Shown: positions 26,527 through 31,585, counted from the stretch's first letter. The stretch is DNA of 64,000 bases from the human T2T-CHM13v2.0 reference genome, Homo sapiens (GCF_009914755.1 NC_060935.1), one strand, 5' to 3'. The notes: generated from the letters alone by a model not told the origin. Translations and numbers: made by a program.

Positions 26527-27937
26527 TATTCTGTGACAAGGGATCCATTCATACCTAAGAGGACACATGAGCTCCAGTATACATGTCCAAGCATGTTCTG
26601 AGCAACACTGTAAGAGGCCAAAAGTGGAAACAACCCAAGTGCCCATCAACAGCACAAACATTTATACCATTGAATGCCTTACGGCAAGGTAACAGGATCA
26701 AGTACAGCTACATGGAACACATAGATGAGGGAAATAAAACACAAAATACATTAAAATATAAAAAGCACAATTCTATGTATATAAGGTTACATAACATTTT
26801 CAAAATCAGCAACGTTTTAATTAATTTAATTAATTTAGAATTCTCCTGCAGAGGAGTTTTCTCTCTTTTCTCCAATGTGTTAATTTATTTAATCATTTAT
26901 TTACAACAGCACAGATTAATATTTATTTTATATTTTGGAATATGATATAGTAGTATTTTAGTTTGTTCCTTAAATTGTTCAAGATTTGGCCATTGGGAGC
27001 TGTTTTATTGGTTTTTGTACCCCTCTAAAATTACCCCATCAATGCTTTTGTTTGTTTTCTATTTATCACATCCTTATTTTCCAGCACTCCAAGATGCTCT
27101 AGGCCCTTTCTGTATATTTCCTTTCCAGATTTAGAAACTGTATTTCTTCATCAGTATTGCTAGATTGTTTTTTTCTTTAAAAGTGTTAGATTTCAGTTTT
27201 ATTAATCATCTTTTTAAAAAAACATATTGTCCCTTTTATTTGTAATTCTATTTTTATTTTAATGTTTTATTTTTTGTTTTGGTTTTGTTTTACTAATTGC
27301 TTGACTTCAACATAAAAAAAGTTTTAGAAATGTGGTTATTAATTTTCAAGTAAATATGATTGGATTCAGGTTTTTTATTTTTAACCTTCAATATTATTTC
27401 ACTGAGGTCCAGATGTGCTGAATTTATTGACCTATTAAATTTTAATTGACATTTATTTTGTAGTCTTGTATTGGGAAATTCTTCTGTTTTCTATATATTT
27501 TTGGTTGTTGCAGGTTATATGATCAAAATTGTTGTTTGTTGTGCAAATTATTATAGCATTACTAGTTTTGTTCTCTGCACTATTGATTTCTGAGAAAACG
27601 GTGTTACGGGGAAAAAACAAACTTCCATCATGAGTGCAGATTTTTCAGTTTTACCTTATAACTCTCAGTCTTGGCTATGTGTCACTGTTATGTGTTTAGG
27701 TGCGTTAAGTTCATCACTGTAATGTTTTCCTAGTGAATTTTCTTTTCAATAACTATGAAATGTGCTCCTTTGATCCTATCAATACACTGGATATTAATAT
27801 TGTTGCCCTAGGTTTCTTTTGTTTAATATTTGTCTGGATTGCCTGTTCCCATAAATTGACCTTTAATCAGTTAGCTTTGTTCTTAAGATTGGTTTAAAAC
27901 GTAGAATAATAGGGAGGAGCATGGGAGGGTGGGACGT

Positions 27938-28010
27938 CTAATGTAAATCCAGCCCAGTGATTACATTAGCTGGGCGCTGATTAGGTTAGGATGTTGCCCA
28001 GGTACAAGGC
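27938..28010 (+). promoter_or_regulatory. Predicted SRSF8 promoter, paralogous to the KDM4F promoter, with DUX4-type motifs
   Basis: TGATTACATTA 27958-27968, TGATTAGGTTA 27978-27988 (perfect, rc TAACCTAATCA); TATA position changed to TACAAG 28003-28008. Confidence 0.8.
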
Positions 28011-28270
28011 CAGGATCTTCGGGACCTGGCTTCATTTGGAGTTCAGCTACCAAAAGGAAACCTTCCTCTGGGTCCTGGAGTATTTGGCCTGAAATTGGGA
28101 ACTCGGAAGTTGCTGCTCCAGGGCGCTCCCTGCGGAGCTCCGCCGCCCGCCTCTCCGCCCGGCCTTTCCCGGCGTCCCCACGCGGGGCGCAACCGCGAGA
28201 AAGAAACGCAGGTCGCACCGTCAGCGCCCAGAGCAGCGCCAGTTTCCGGGCCCGGGCTGCTCTCGGAGCC

Positions 28271-29119
28271 ATGAGCTGCGGCCGCCCCCCTCCCGACGTG
28301 GACGGCATGATCACCCTCAAGGTGGACAACCTGACCTACCGCACCTCTCCCGACAGCTTGAGGCGCGTGTTCGAGAAGTACGGGCGCGTGGGCGACGTGT
28401 ACATCCCGCGGGAGCCCCACACCAAGGCGCCCCGGGGCTTCGCTTTCGTCCGCTTTCACGACCGGCGCGACGCCCAAGACGCCGAGGCCGCCATGGACGG
28501 GGCGGAGCTGGACGGACGCGAGCTGCGGGTGCAGGTGGCGCGCTATGGCCGCCGGGACCTGCCCCGCAGCCGCCAGGGAGAGCCACGCGGCAGGTCCAGA
28601 GGCGGCGGCTACGGACGGCGGAGCCGCAGCTACGGGCGGCGGAGCCGCAGCCCCAGGCGGCGACACCGCAGCCGATCCCGGGGTCCCAGCTGCTCCAGGT
28701 CCCGCAGCCGATCTCGCTATAGGGGTTCTCGCTATAGCCGGTCTCCCTACAGCCGATCTCCTTACAGCCGGTCGCGCTACAGCCGCTCTCCCTACAGCAG
28801 ATCTCGCTACAGGGAATCTCGCTACGGCGGATCTCACTACAGCTCATCTGGTTACAGTAACTCTCGCTACAGCCGATATCACAGCAGCCGGTCTCACTCG
28901 AAGTCTGGGTCCTCCACTAGCTCTCGCTCTGCATCAACCTCCAAATCGAGCTCTGCGCGACGATCCAAGTCCTCCTCGGTCTCCAGGTCTCGCTCGCGGT
29001 CCAGGTCTTCATCTATGACCAGGAGTCCTCCCCGGGTATCCAAGAGGAAATCCAAGTCAAGGTCGCGATCCAAGAGGCCCCCCAAGTCTCCTGAAGAGGA
29101 AGGACAGATGTCCTCTTAA
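28271..29119 (+). CDS. SRSF8: Serine/arginine-rich splicing factor 8 (SRp46/SFRS2B), intronless SRSF2 retrogene, 282 aa
   Basis: gagccATG; RRM with LKVDNL and [10 protein letters not shown] domain; SRSF2-like termini MSx[16 protein letters not shown]; CpG island. Confidence 0.97.
28712..28891 (+). repeat. Coding 15-bp tandem repeat, 12 units (consensus tctcgctacagccga = SRYSR)
   Basis: Units read directly: tctcgctataggggt, tctcgctatagccgg, tctccctacagccga, tctccttacagccgg, ... Confidence 0.92.
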
Positions 29120-30148
29120 GAAAATGATGCATCAGGAAGCAACGTGATGGAGGACTTGGGGGAAAAGGATCACATACTCAGTCTATGGAAGCAACGTCCC
29201 TGGAAGAAGAGGCTGCCTATTGAAAAGGTTGTGTCACACTTTTCTACCTTTTTGCCAGTTTGAAGCTTTGCATCAGGTGGCAAAATTCATTCTATGTGCC
29301 GTTTTGTTGTTATTCACATTTTATTGTAACTTAGGAGGTGAACGACCTAAGATTACGTTATTGGGTTTGGATATTTGAGGCAAAAATTTATTTTTATTTC
29401 TATAGTGATGACTGTTTTGGTTTGAAATGAACAGATTGGTAACCTAATTTGTGGCCTCCTGACTTTTAAGGAAACGTGTGCAGCCATTACACACAGCCTA
29501 ACGCTGTCAAGACATTGCTTCAACATTGCCTTCATTCCTTAAAAACCTACAAAAGGTGGTGTAAATTAATATGGATAATTTTATTTACCTCCAGGTCTAA
29601 AAGGTAGTGTGACCCAAATTTGTATAAAGATTTTTCATGTGAAAGGACTGGGGTTTTAGCAAACACAGGTCTAATCTCTTTTGTGTTTTTGTGCACCAGG
29701 CCCGGCTGCGTAGCAGTTGAGTGATGCTGGTTAGCTATTAAGGTGGCCTGTTGCAGTGCAGAGTGCTGAGCTGCTTCCTGTTTTCTTCTGATTGCTCCTG
29801 GGGAAAACACGCCTTGTCCTGAAGAACAAATGGCTGTCCAGTTTATTAAAATGCCTGTCAACTGCACTTCCAGTCACCCAGGCCTTGCAGATAAATAATG
29901 GAGCATGCAGTGAGCACATCTAGCTGACGATAATCACACCTTTTCCCCCGTCTTTTCTGAAAAATTGTAAATCTGATCATATCAACATGTATGAACTTAA
30001 AATATGGAGAATGTTATGGAAGAAATAGTTTATAAGTTTGTTAAGTACTTATAACATGGTTTATCTTTTTGATTATTAATTTTTTACGCTAACCATTGTT
30101 TCTGTAGTTAAAATTGTTTTCTTGGTGTTATCTTTTCTCAGAATAAAA
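29120..30148 (+). other. SRSF2-derived 3'UTR of SRSF8, ending in an A-rich tail remnant
   Basis: Paralogous to 66-834; ends ttttctcagaataaaa, after which KDM4-unit intron homology resumes. Confidence 0.85.
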
Positions 30149-30894
30149 TTAGAAACTTTTGATGGAAAGTAGGTTGTTTTATTTTCTGTATGACTTTTGA
30201 ATATTTGTACTTTTGAGAAAATTATTAGCACCAAGTGTTTCTCAAAATATAATTTTTAAAAAATCCTTAATAGGCTTTTAGCTATGTGCTTTATTGTTTT
30301 ATCACAATGCAGTTTATTTGTAGTTTCTCTCTTTTTTCCTCACACCTATGGTTTTTTTACTTCCAAAATTATTTTCAAATAATCCATTTTTGGCTTTCAT
30401 CATTATCCCTACTAGATGTTATGTGTTCTTTTGCAATTGTTTCTGCTTATACCTTTACTAGCAAAGGGAAAAATAACAATTTGGTGTCAATGATCTGGTG
30501 AAAATAGGATTACATTGGAGCCAATTGAATAAATTTATTCTTTCAATCATATGGATCTTCATTAATATTTTTGACTGAATTATCAATTAAAAATATTTCA
30601 TTCCCTTTGTGCAGAAACTGCTAAATCCAGGGTTCGATTCTTGAATGAACTGGCAAGCTGGCTGTGGTCTGTAGATATACATCCCACATTTTGTTGTTAT
30701 AACAGTTAGTAGTTAGTATTGCTTTCATATATAGACTCCAGAATCTAAATTTTACGATAATGACATTTCTTCTGGTCATGACAAATGTAATATTTTACAA
30801 ATATAAATCTACGTAGAATCCAAAGACACACACGGAGCAGTCCTGTCTGAGAAATAAAAAATCAGGACACCCATGGCATCGTAGTAGCCCCTCG

Positions 30895-30913
30895 CGTCCA
30901 GCAGGTGGCGAAG
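30895..30913 (+). promoter_or_regulatory. CTCF-like motif
   Basis: cgtCCAGCAGGTGGCGaag matches the CCASYAGRKGGCR core; local CpG retention. Confidence 0.55.
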
Positions 30914-31131
30914 GGAGGTGAGGTTTATTTATTAAATGGGACCGAGTGGGACGGGGACGGGGCAGCCCTAAGGGTAGGGAAGCATTGTCAATTTCTGGGG
31001 ATAGAATGAGACCCAGGCATAGCTGGAGTTTGAAGCTTTGAAGCAAAAATATCTGTAGAACATCTTAAACGTGACCAAAATATGATGTTAAAATCAGCAA
31101 CTCTTTATACGTTAAAAACTTTGAAACCTGT

Positions 31132-31460
31132 GGCCGGGCATGGTGGCTCGCGCCTGTAATCCCAGCACTTTGGGAGGCCAAGGCAGGTGGATCACCTGAG
31201 GTCAGGAGCTCAAGACCAGCCTGACCAACATGGTGAAACCCCGTCTCTACTAAAAATACAAAAATTAGCTGGGCATGGTGGCGCATGCCTATAATCCCAG
31301 CTACTCGGAGGCTGAGGCAGGATAATCGCTTGAAACCGGGAGACAGAGGTTGTGGTGAGCCGAGATCACGCCATTGCACTCCAGCCGGGGCAACAAGAGC
31401 AAAACTCCATCTCAAAAAAAAAAAAAAAAAAAAGAAAAAGGAAAAAAACAAACAAACAAC
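31132..31460 (+). mobile_element. AluS (Sq-like)
   Basis: Full dimer with long A tail; TSD aactttgaaacct at 31117-31129 and 31461-31473. Confidence 0.95.
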
Positions 31461-31470
31461 AACTTTGAAA

Positions 31471-31585
31471 CCTAGGAACAATTTTGGACCTGTTGGAGCA
31501 GAAATGTGTAGTTGTCATTGAAGGTGTGAACATACCCTACCTCTACTCTACATGTGGAAGACCTGACCCACAGAGGACATGAACC
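31471..31585 (+). pseudogene. KDM4 JmjC remnant (resident gene of the SRSF8 unit)
   Basis: ctaggaacaattttggacctgttggagcag..gttgtcattgaaggtgtgaacataccctacctctac..atgtggaagacc..gaggacatg, matching KDM4F 10918-11040. Confidence 0.9.

What the first reader, a model, noticed from the sequence alone, without database searches (positions are those of the whole stretch)
27900..31585. SRSF8 arose by promoter capture: an SRSF2 retrocopy inserted at the exon-1 donor of a KDM4 unit
Seen: the KDM4F unit is an empty site (9470-9520: ggagtattttcatcaGGAATTGTGAGTttttggtggaagttagg). In the SRSF8 unit the left flank ends ggagtatttggcctGAAATTGGGAACT (28091-28103), the ~2.0-kb retrocopy follows, and the right flank resumes AAAATTAGAAACTtttgatggaaagtagg (30145-30157). 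These look like degenerate 13-bp TSDs that map onto the predicted KDM4F donor GTGAGT. Intron homology continues to 30457 and a KDM4 JmjC remnant lies at 31471-31585. Known: KDM4E and SRSF8 (SFRS2B) are reported DUX4-induced genes. Inference: the retrocopy took over a KDM4 paralog's promoter and first exon while the resident gene decayed. This would put a splicing factor and H3K9 demethylases under one duplicated cleavage-stage promoter. I do not know of this mechanism being described for SRSF8.
Basis: partly seen in the sequence, partly recalled or inferred. Interest (0 to 1): 0.9.

Follow-up and report, generated by a model that had tools for sequence, protein, structure and literature searches.

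The report
SRSF8 retrogene sits behind KDM4 promoter
SRSF8 is a processed copy of the splicing-factor gene SRSF2 that landed just behind the DUX4-type promoter of a KDM4E/F-like demethylase gene copy, which probably explains why DUX4 switches it on.

Summary
Both flanks of SRSF8 are collinear with the KDM4F unit: 26448-28085 matches 7797-9479, and 30157-30457 matches 9498-9801. Only 18 bp of KDM4F lie between these two matches.

Comparison with SRSF2 on chr17 shows that window 28108-30145 is a full-length processed copy. It runs from the parental start site to the parental cleavage site and lacks two parental introns.

KDM4E and KDM4F both keep the empty site, GGAATT|GTGAGT. Downstream KDM4 coding remnants in the SRSF8 unit and its paralogue SRSF8BP together cover aa ~7-637.

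The captured promoter carries two DUX4 consensus sites. They are conserved in all five genomic copies of the promoter and occur nowhere else in 114 kb of the cluster. RefSeq start sites (27921, 27963) lie in KDM4-derived DNA.

Several points remain open:
- The 13-bp duplication is weak on its own.
- The KDM4 exon 1 and donor are only predicted.
- SRSF8 alone has lost the TATA box.
- A CpG island starts exactly at the retrocopy edge.
- The DUX4-driven start site is untested.

This is a new, well-documented member of a known kind: a retrocopy using a host-gene promoter.

The parts
26448..28103 (+). KDM4-unit upstream flank, promoter and exon-1 homologue (host DNA left of the retrocopy)
   Evidence: Matches KDM4F unit 7797-9479 at 71.7% and KDM4E unit -21323..-20036 at 71.3%. 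Core promoter plus exon 1 is 137 of 160 columns identical to KDM4F, against 75% for the whole flank, P = 7.6e-4.
27958..27988 (-). Pair of DUX4 consensus sites (27958-27968 and 27978-27988), 15-35 nt upstream of the TATA position
   Evidence: Only 4 matches to TAAYBBAATCA occur in the 64-kb window: this pair and the KDM4F pair at 9349-9379. Pairs are also present in the KDM4E, SRSF8BP (1 of 2 sites) and chr7 copies. The motif is taken from PMC12376486 and PMC8699294 (passages).
28003..28008 (+). Degenerate TATA position (TACAAG); the other four promoter copies have TATAAA
   Evidence: Five-way alignment.
28091..28103 (+). Left copy of the putative target-site duplication
   Evidence: It is 10/13 identical to the right copy and homologous to KDM4F 9486-9498. 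It is weak on its own.
28104..30145 (+). Processed SRSF2 retrocopy (SRSF2 homology 28108-30145), from parental start site to parental cleavage site, lacking two parental introns
   Evidence: Identity to chr17 SRSF2 is 80-82%. Parental gene coordinates jump 1518->1844 and 2160->3155.
28100..29000 (.). CpG island carried by the retrocopy; GC rises from 0.51 to 0.76 and CpG o/e from 0.16 to ~1.0 at the 5' boundary
28271..29119 (+). SRSF8 coding sequence (282 aa; RRM plus expanded RS domain)
   Evidence: PDB 2dnm 'SRp46' matches with no mismatches in the region that is SRSF8 sequence in the chain (aa 8-96). RRM is 78 of 95 identical to SRSF2 (2lea). Tandem 15-nt amplification at 28705-28895.
30142..30147 (+). 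AATAAA formed where the SRSF2 mRNA end (…GAATA) meets the A-tail remnant; the inherited ATTAAA is destroyed by a 4-nt deletion
   Evidence: Use of this signal is shown by two secondary retrocopies ending ~20 nt downstream.
30145..30157 (+). Right copy of the putative target-site duplication (its first As cannot be told from an A-tail remnant)
30157..30457 (+). Remnant of the KDM4-unit intron
   Evidence: Matches KDM4F 9498-9801 at 70.6%. The SRSF8BP unit matches 9498-9962.
30733..31585 (+). Decayed KDM4 coding exon (30733-30844, 30877-31108, 31441-31585; about aa 7-194), split by an Alu at 31130-31443

Best explanation
SRSF8 is an L1-type processed retrocopy of a full-length SRSF2 mRNA. It inserted in sense orientation into one member of the tandem KDM4E/F-type array on chr11. 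The insertion point is the exon-1/intron-1 boundary, about 70 nt downstream of the predicted start site of that unit's TATA promoter, which carries two DUX4 sites.

The retrocopy carried no parental promoter, so transcription starts in host DNA and reads straight into the SRSF2-derived 5'UTR without splicing. The host's KDM4 coding exon, now stranded behind the retrocopy, decayed.

Inferred order of events:
1. The KDM4 unit duplicated.
2. The retrocopy inserted.
3. A three-unit block duplicated, giving [KDM4E-pseudogene-SRSF8BP] and [KDM4F-pseudogene-SRSF8].
4. Each lineage decayed independently.

Inferred function: the conserved DUX4 site pair makes SRSF8 DUX4-inducible together with KDM4E/F. 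The retrocopy's own CpG island supports basal expression with start sites at its upstream shore.

Shown: the insertion geometry, the retrocopy limits, the empty sites, motif conservation, and purifying selection on the RRM.
Inferred: which start site DUX4 uses, and that the motif pair is what mediates induction.
For: 1. Flank collinearity with the KDM4F unit on both sides and with the KDM4E unit.
2. SRSF2 homology is exactly 28108-30145. It starts ~33 nt after the parental TATAAA and ends ~30 nt after the parental ATTAAA. Two introns are missing.
3. Two empty sites (KDM4E, KDM4F) read GGAATT|GTGAGT. Three filled copies share the same left and right junctions.
4. The SRSF8BP unit keeps KDM4 aa 104-637 and 3' flank collinear with KDM4F. 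The SRSF8 unit keeps aa ~7-194.
5. DUX4 motif counts are 2 of 2 in the SRSF8, chr7, KDM4E and KDM4F copies and 1 of 2 in SRSF8BP. There is no other match in the fetched 114 kb of the cluster, including 28 kb around KDM4D. Of 22 motif positions, 21 are identical between SRSF8 and KDM4F.
6. The promoter has only 5 genomic matches, so it is not a recognisable interspersed repeat.
7. RefSeq start sites 27921 and 27963 (hub table) are 141-183 nt upstream of the retrocopy.
8. On the branch before the SRSF8/SRSF8BP split, the RRM shows 17 synonymous and 16 non-synonymous changes. Neutral expectation is ~1:3, P = 6e-4.
9. Literature, passages read:
- SRSF8 was bound by DUX4 in ChIP-seq and induced 5.9-fold (PMC5409219).
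- It was induced 4.0- and 6.2-fold in the DUX4/DUX4c tables (PMC5323140).
- It was differentially expressed after 3 h of DUX4 induction (bioRxiv 10.1101/2021.05.04.442407).
- KDM4E is a direct DUX4 target (PMC8699294).
Against: 1. The duplication alone is not significant (329 of 5000 shuffles), and only about three As remain of a tail.
2. Both duplication copies have G where KDM4E/F have the T of the donor GT. The host donor may have been inactive before insertion.
3. KDM4 exon 1 and donor are unsupported by annotation. RefSeq KDM4E starts at -13705, 6.3 kb downstream of this promoter.
4. SRSF8 is the only copy that lost TATAAA. Its RefSeq start site 27963 lies inside DUX4 site 1, not at the TATA-predicted ~28033.
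5. The chr7 secondary retrocopy shows a germline transcript of the sister locus that began at least 360 nt upstream of the DUX4 sites.
6. DUX4 induction is modest (4-6 fold). The published ChIP peak was only assigned within 10 kb of the start site.
7. No main-text paper links SRSF8 to the human 8-cell stage (1 paper, on mouse).
Confidence: 0.8

Rival explanations
1. The retrocopy survives and is expressed mainly because it carried its own CpG island (SRSF2 5'UTR and CDS). Under this reading the KDM4-type promoter is a bystander, or adds only a minor DUX4 response.
For: - The CpG island (o/e ~1.0, GC 0.62-0.79) starts exactly at the retrocopy edge and has stayed intact.
- SRSF8 alone lost the TATA box.
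- RefSeq start sites are dispersed upstream of the TATA position.
- Induction is only 4-6 fold.
- Carelli et al. 2016 (PMC4772013, passages) associate 51.5% (103 of 200) of novel human retrocopy promoters with CpG islands.
Against: - The annotated start sites still lie in KDM4-derived DNA.
- The DUX4 pair is intact in SRSF8 and 21 of 22 positions match KDM4F, despite ~25% flank divergence.
- Core promoter and exon 1 are the best-conserved part of the left flank.
- Early (3 h) DUX4 response.
Confidence: 0.3
2. The host KDM4 unit was already a dead pseudogene when the retrocopy arrived. Nothing was taken over from a working gene; only a still-active orphan promoter was reused.
For: - Both duplication copies share G at the donor +2 position, against T in KDM4E/F.
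- The SRSF8BP KDM4 remnant is as diverged from KDM4F (67.3% over 1682 columns) as the non-coding flanks are (68.7-72.6%). So no period of constraint is visible.
Against: - Remnants in the two sister units together span aa ~7-637, so the exon was complete at the block duplication.
- In the ~250-nt overlap the two remnants share no frameshift or stop. Their lesions differ.
- There is no outgroup for the donor position. KDM4D lacks this 5' module, and the LOC100420801 unit has it deleted.
Confidence: 0.4
3. The promoter homology is secondary: a KDM4E/F promoter was pasted upstream of an independently inserted SRSF8 by gene conversion or a small duplication.
For: Gene conversion or joint selection does act here. 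SRSF8 and SRSF8BP share a high-identity tract at 27730-28529 (88-99 identical per 100 alignment columns), against 66-86 in most neighbouring 100-column windows without large gaps.
Against: - Collinearity with the KDM4F unit runs from 19957 to 31585 on both sides of the retrocopy. Divergence (~70-79%) is uniform and typical of the old unit duplication.
- The right flank resumes exactly where the left flank stops.
Confidence: 0.03

Closest known systems
Retrocopies that use a host gene's promoter (integration into a host gene, 'piggybacking'; Carelli et al. 2016, PMC4772013; Vinckenbosch et al. 2006 recalled, not read)
   Same: Sense insertion inside a pre-existing transcription unit downstream of its promoter, giving a transcript with a host-derived 5' leader. 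Carelli et al. report 13 human cases of intronic integration with host exons (passages).
   Different: No splicing is needed here, because the insertion is at the exon-1/intron boundary and the leader is contiguous. The host gene has since died, so annotation-based screens would not see a host. The host promoter belongs to a tandem family and is DUX4-responsive.
SRp46/SFRS2B as an expressed PR264/SC35 retropseudogene (Soret et al. 1998, Mol Cell Biol 18:4924; seen only as a title in reference lists; text not held)
   Same: Same gene. That it is a functional SRSF2 retrocopy with an altered RS domain is already known.
   Different: I could not read that paper. KDM4 genes and DUX4 targets were unknown in 1998. 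The host unit, the empty sites and the promoter origin appear in none of the papers my searches returned.
DUX4 direct-target promoters of cleavage-stage genes (ZSCAN4, KDM4E, LEUTX and others)
   Same: Matches to the ChIP-derived DUX4 motif just upstream of a TATA-type core promoter. KDM4E is an accepted direct target (PMC8699294, PMC12376486, PMC6341076; passages).
   Different: SRSF8 has basal expression, a CpG island and a much smaller fold induction than ZSCAN4 (5.9 versus 34,772 fold in PMC5409219).

Membership tests
L1-mediated processed retrocopy of SRSF2 | Homology to the parental mRNA from start site to cleavage site, and not beyond | tested here: met
   Homology spans 28108-30145. 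It starts ~33 nt after the parental TATAAA and ends ~30 nt after the parental ATTAAA. Parental flanks do not align.
L1-mediated processed retrocopy of SRSF2 | Parental introns absent | tested here: met
   Two gaps in parental coordinates are contiguous in SRSF8: 1518->1844 (coding intron) and 2160->3155 (3'UTR intron).
L1-mediated processed retrocopy of SRSF2 | Poly(A) tail at the 3' end | tested here: inconclusive
   Only about three As follow the parental cleavage site, and they merge with the A-rich start of the duplication.
L1-mediated processed retrocopy of SRSF2 | Target-site duplication flanking the insert, with an empty site elsewhere | tested here: inconclusive
   The two copies match at 10 of 13 positions, which is not significant alone (329 of 5000 shuffles). 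However, both copies map onto the same 13 nt of two empty paralogous sites.
Retrocopy driven by a host-gene promoter | Sense insertion downstream of a pre-existing promoter within a gene unit | tested here: met
   Flanks are collinear with the KDM4E and KDM4F units. KDM4 coding remnants lie downstream.
Retrocopy driven by a host-gene promoter | Transcription start in host-derived DNA | tested here: met
   RefSeq exon starts 27921 and 27963 (hub table) lie before the retrocopy start at 28104-28108. This rests on annotation, not on data I generated.
Retrocopy driven by a host-gene promoter | Chimeric mRNA made by splicing host exons to the retrocopy (the class as Carelli et al. define it) | tested here: not met
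   The RefSeq main transcript is one exon, 27963-32274. The leader is contiguous. The donor position reads GG in the left copy.
DUX4 direct-target promoter | Match to the DUX4 binding motif near the start site | tested here: met
   Two matches at 27958-27968 and 27978-27988. There are 4 matches in 64 kb, all in the two paralogous promoters. Shuffles give a mean of 1.02, and 3 of 100 reach 4.
DUX4 direct-target promoter | DUX4 occupancy at the sites and site-dependent induction | not testable with these tools
   PMC5409219 states the gene was bound in ChIP-seq (peaks assigned within 10 kb of the start site) and induced 5.9 fold. I did not see the peak position.
KDM4E/F-type tandem unit | Ordered upstream region, promoter, exon 1, intron and JmjN/JmjC coding exon | tested here: met
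   The order is kept in the SRSF8 and SRSF8BP units, with deletions. Only fragments of the coding exon survive in SRSF8.

The most novel reading that the evidence does not exclude
One DUX4-responsive promoter module, specific to KDM4E/F-type units and absent from the KDM4D region, was multiplied by tandem duplication and then handed to a splicing-factor retrogene. Selection would then have kept the DUX4 site pair and the RRM for a very long time (flank K2P 0.28-0.37). That would make SRSF8, and until recently SRSF8BP, dedicated cleavage-stage splicing regulators co-induced with H3K9 demethylases. The divergences further suggest that the insertion may predate the primate radiation, so SRSF8 might exist or have been lost outside primates.
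Probability: 0.3. Interest if true: 0.7.

Novelty: new member of a known kind. Interest (0 to 1): 0.55.

Why it matters
It gives a concrete cis-regulatory reason why a splicing factor is among the DUX4 targets in FSHD muscle models and, by inference, in the cleavage-stage embryo. SRSF8 shares a paralogous promoter with KDM4E and KDM4F.

It is also an unusually complete example of retrogene birth. The parent gene, empty sites, a decayed host gene, a sister copy and two secondary retrocopies are all visible. The host gene has vanished from annotation, so screens that depend on gene models would misclassify the promoter as novel.

It makes sharp, cheap predictions: a start site near 28030 under DUX4, and loss of induction when 27958-27988 is removed.

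Tried and rejected
- The sigma-70 promoter and terminator scan is a bacterial model and irrelevant here; ignored.
- The duplication shuffle test did not reach significance, so I do not use the duplication as stand-alone evidence.
- Literature consensus TAATCTAATCA with 1 mismatch gave 4 matches against 1.82 expected; 14 of 100 shuffles reached 4. The count alone is therefore not significant; position and conservation carry the argument.
- The 4-kb extra segment 22402-26448 gave only short open frames and no tandem repeats. Its nature was left undetermined.
- KDM4D and the LOC100420801 unit were tried as outgroups for the donor position. KDM4D homology to KDM4E/F begins only at the ATG, and LOC100420801 lacks 9190-11346, so there is no outgroup.
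- I looked for disabling lesions shared by the SRSF8 and SRSF8BP KDM4 remnants and found none in ~250 nt. The region is too short to settle when the host gene died.
- Soret et al. 1998 (PMC109076) and my recalled id for Geng et al. 2012 are not held.
Its Table S4 may already classify the SRSF8 promoter.
- The four-term search on SRSF8 and genome activation was uninformative. SRSF8 plus '8-cell' gave 1 paper, on mouse.
- No genomes of other mammals were available, so the proposed orthologue test was not done.

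
Full report
**1. Observation**

Self-BLAST of the window shows that DNA on both sides of SRSF8 is collinear with the KDM4F unit:

| SRSF8 unit | KDM4F unit | Identity |
|---|---|---|
| 19957-22402 | 5067-7717 | 73-79% |
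| 26448-28085 | 7797-9479 | 71.7%, E = 0 |
| 30157-30457 | 9498-9801 | 70.6%, E = 6e-30 |
| 31467-31585 | CDS 10913-11041 | 79% |

The two inner alignments stop 18 bp apart on KDM4F. About 2.07 kb lies between them in the SRSF8 unit.

**2. The insert is a full-length processed SRSF2 copy**

The assembly that holds the window could be searched. The parent gene lies on chr17, minus strand. Alignment shows the following:
- SRSF2 homology runs from window 28108 to 30145.
- It begins ~33 nt after the parental TATAAA, so at the parental start site with no parental promoter included.
- It ends ~30 nt after the parental ATTAAA, at the parental cleavage site.
- Two parental introns are absent (parental coordinates 1518->1844 and 2160->3155).
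- Four bases (28104-28107) match neither partner.
- Only about three As follow the cleavage site.
- In SRSF8 the inherited ATTAAA is destroyed by a 4-nt deletion. A new AATAAA (30142-30147) is formed where the mRNA end meets the A remnant.

The protein has an RRM (Pfam). PDB 2dnm 'SRp46' matches it with no mismatches across the region that is SRSF8 sequence in that chain (aa 8-96). It is 78 of 95 identical to the SRSF2 RRM (2lea). A 15-nt unit is amplified 12.7 times in the RS region.

**3. Empty and filled sites**

The promoter fragment 27900-28103 has only five matches in the genome:
- SRSF8
- SRSF8BP (95%)
- a chr7 copy (96%)
- the KDM4E promoter at window -20219..-20036 (84%)
- the KDM4F promoter (83%)

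The five-way alignment and the right-junction alignment show that KDM4E and KDM4F both read GGAATT|GTGAGT uninterrupted. The three filled copies share one left junction (GAAATTGGGAAYT) and one right junction (AAAAYTAGAAAYW).

The two copies match at 10 of 13 positions. This is not significant by itself: 329 of 5000 shuffles and 465 of 3000 random genomic pairs do as well. I therefore rest the case on flank collinearity and the empty sites, not on the duplication.

Both copies carry G where the empty sites have the T of the donor GT. By parsimony the host's donor may already have been inactive. No outgroup exists, because KDM4D shares homology with KDM4E/F only from the ATG, and the LOC100420801 unit has this part deleted.

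**4. The host was a complete KDM4 unit**

- Downstream of SRSF8BP, the window holds intron homology (844-1303 ~ 9498-9962). It also holds a collinear KDM4 coding remnant at 1455-3123 (aa 104-637) and 3' flank.
- Downstream of SRSF8, remnants lie at 30733-30844, 30877-31108 and 31441-31585 (about aa 7-194). They are split by an Alu with its own 13-bp duplication.

Together the two sister units cover aa ~7-637. In the ~250 nt that both retain I found no shared frameshift or stop. The SRSF8BP remnant is as diverged from KDM4F (67.3%) as the non-coding flanks are. The host gene therefore lost constraint early, either before the insertion or because of it.

**5. History of the cluster**

Extending the map upstream gives this order of units: KDM4D, LOC100420801, KDM4E, LOC100420802, SRSF8BP unit, KDM4F, LOC100420803, SRSF8 unit.

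The blocks [KDM4E-LOC100420802-SRSF8BP] and [KDM4F-LOC100420803-SRSF8] are collinear at 77-83% identity. The retrocopy-bearing units differ from the KDM4E/F units by ~28-31%.

K2P distances:

| Comparison | K2P |
|---|---|
| SRSF8 vs KDM4F flanks | 0.30-0.38 |
| SRSF8 vs SRSF8BP right flank | 0.28 |
| SRSF8BP vs SRSF2 distal 3'UTR | 0.177 |

The inferred order is unit duplication, retrocopy insertion, block duplication. In absolute terms these are old events. My rough inference from general mammalian neutral rates (recalled, not computed here) is at least early primate and possibly earlier.

**6. The captured promoter**

The motif TAAYBBAATCA is the ChIP-derived DUX4 site (PMC12376486, passage). 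The optimal site TAATCTAATCA is given in PMC8699294. TAAYBBAATCA matches four times in the 64-kb window: the pair 27958-27968 / 27978-27988 and the pair 9349-9359 / 9369-9379.

Across all fetched loci the pairs recur in the KDM4E and chr7 copies, and one site survives in SRSF8BP. No other match occurs in 114 kb of the cluster, including 28 kb around KDM4D.

Conservation between SRSF8 and KDM4F:
- 21 of 22 motif positions are identical.
- The core promoter plus exon 1 is 137 of 160 identical, against 75% for the whole flank (P = 7.6e-4).
- The exon-1 part is 47 of 50 identical.

KDM4F has TATAAA at 9394-9399, a consensus donor at 9492-9497 and a good acceptor ending at 10456, two bases before the ATG. 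KDM4E conserves the donor and the acceptor. No annotated transcript uses them.

**7. How SRSF8 is transcribed**

By the hub's RefSeq table, SRSF8 transcripts start at 27921 or 27963, which is 141-183 nt inside KDM4-derived DNA. The main transcript is unspliced to 32274. The mRNA is therefore chimeric at both ends.

Three points argue for a second, CpG-island mode of initiation in somatic cells:
- A CpG island (o/e ~1, GC up to 0.79) begins exactly at 28100.
- SRSF8 is the only one of five promoter copies that changed TATAAA to TACAAG.
- The RefSeq start at 27963 lies inside DUX4 site 1, not at the TATA-predicted ~28033.

The literature supports DUX4 responsiveness:
- SRSF8 was bound in ChIP-seq and induced 5.9 fold (PMC5409219).
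- It is listed at 4.0 and 6.2 fold (PMC5323140).
- It was differentially expressed after 3 h of DUX4 induction (bioRxiv 10.1101/2021.05.04.442407).
- Its phosphopeptides rose from 2 h after induction (PMC10655719).

I saw passages only, and no peak coordinates. No main-text paper ties SRSF8 to the human 8-cell stage.

**8. Selection**

With SRSF2 as reference, the first 95 codons show these changes:

| Branch | Synonymous | Non-synonymous |
|---|---|---|
| Before the SRSF8/SRSF8BP split | 17 | 16 |
| SRSF8 | 1 | 2 |
| SRSF8BP | 1 | 4 |

Two further changes could not be assigned to a branch. The stem count departs from the neutral expectation of ~1:3 (P = 6e-4). The retrocopy was therefore a constrained coding gene before the block duplication.

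SRSF8 and SRSF8BP share a high-identity tract at 27730-28529 (88-99 identical per 100 alignment columns). It covers the promoter, leader and RRM, against 66-86 in most neighbouring windows without large gaps. Either gene conversion or joint selection could explain this.

**9. Fossil cDNAs**

- The chr7 copy (L022 4578-7484) is 96.6% identical to window -2043..854. It is flanked by a perfect 12-bp duplication, so it is a retrocopy of an SRSF8BP-locus transcript.
- It ends ~20 nt after the junction AATAAA. It begins at least 360 nt upstream of the DUX4 sites, so that transcript did not start at the TATA-predicted site.
- Its reading frame is open, whereas SRSF8BP has one premature stop.
- A 265-bp fragment at chr11:29.40 Mb (L013, 96%) is a 5'-truncated retrocopy of SRSF8 mRNA. 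It ends at ~30168 followed by an A run.
- Both fossils show that the junction-made poly(A) signal is used.

**10. Comparison with what is known, and novelty**

SRSF8 (SRp46) being an expressed SRSF2 retropseudogene is known (Soret et al. 1998; title seen only, text not held). Retrocopies using host promoters are a known class (PMC4772013, passages).

The defining spliced host-exon fusion is not met here, because the leader is contiguous.

None of my searches returned a paper that links SRSF8 to a KDM4 host unit or explains its DUX4 response through a shared promoter:
- SRSF8 + DUX4: 7 papers
- SRp46 + retropseudogene: 4
- SRSF8 + KDM4E: 1, a TCGA gene list
- SFRS2B + DUX4: 2
- SRSF8 + retrogene: 1
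- SRSF8/SFRS2B/retrocop/primate-specific (at least two of the four terms): of the 25 papers listed out of 72, none held SRSF8 or SFRS2B together with retrocop

Unread sources may bear on this claim: Soret 1998, Geng 2012, and the supplements of Carelli 2016.

**Verdict.** It is a new, unusually well-documented member of a known kind.

Noticed in passing
L022 4578-7484 (G000:C7:47213577-47216483): A retrocopy of a 2.9-kb unspliced SRSF8BP-locus transcript, 96.6% identical to window -2043..854, with a perfect 12-bp target-site duplication. It carries the whole promoter (both DUX4 motifs, TATAAA) and an uninterrupted SRSF8-like reading frame. SRSF8BP itself has one premature stop.
   Followed up: partly
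L013 1501-1766 (G000:C11:29401224-29401489): A 5'-truncated retrocopy of the SRSF8 mRNA 3' end (96%). It stops at window ~30168 and is followed by an A run. This shows a short SRSF8 isoform polyadenylated ~20 nt after the AATAAA at 30142-30147, with its last ~23 nt derived from the KDM4 intron.
   Followed up: partly
window 27730-28529 versus window -1930..-1100 (SRSF8BP): SRSF8 and SRSF8BP are 88-99% identical per 100 alignment columns across promoter, leader and RRM, but 66-86% in most neighbouring windows without large gaps. This points to a gene-conversion tract or long joint selection. A second high-identity patch lies at 29663-29862.
   Followed up: partly
window -41606..-40484 (KDM4D) versus 10459-11581: KDM4D is homologous to KDM4E/F only from the ATG onward (86%). 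The promoter/exon-1/intron module with the DUX4 sites has no counterpart in the 28 kb fetched around KDM4D. The KDM4E/F-type 5' module therefore has a separate origin.
   Followed up: partly
window -20036..-13405 (KDM4E unit): The KDM4E copy of the promoter lies 6.8 kb upstream of the KDM4E ATG, because about 5.7 kb of extra DNA sits in the predicted intron. RefSeq KDM4E starts only 300 nt before the ATG, so the DUX4-type promoter is unannotated for KDM4E and KDM4F.
   Followed up: partly
window -28297..-25624 (LOC100420801) and 16826-19957 (LOC100420803): The annotated 'KDM4D pseudogenes' are further degenerate KDM4E/F-type units. LOC100420801 lacks the equivalent of 9190-11346. LOC100420803 sits as ~2.9 kb of extra DNA relative to KDM4F coordinates 5059/5067.
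   Followed up: partly
window 22402-26448: About 4 kb is present in the SRSF8 unit but absent from the KDM4F unit. The SRSF8BP unit has only ~1.3 kb here. No long open frames or tandem repeats were found, and its nature is undetermined.
   Followed up: partly
window 3-1000 (LOC107984375): This predicted lncRNA is the 3'UTR of the SRSF8BP retrocopy. Its exon start at 382 corresponds to the SRSF8 alternative acceptor at 29700.
   Followed up: no
L016/L017 (G000:C23:33986562-33988469) and L014 (G000:C7:134388885-134389208): Older or partial SRSF2/SRSF8-like retrocopies at 66-71% and 80% identity, on the X chromosome and on chr7.
   Followed up: no
window 31130-31443: An Alu insertion with a 13-bp duplication (AACTTTGAAACCT) splits the KDM4 coding remnant. 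It is absent from the SRSF8BP unit, so it postdates the block duplication.
   Followed up: partly
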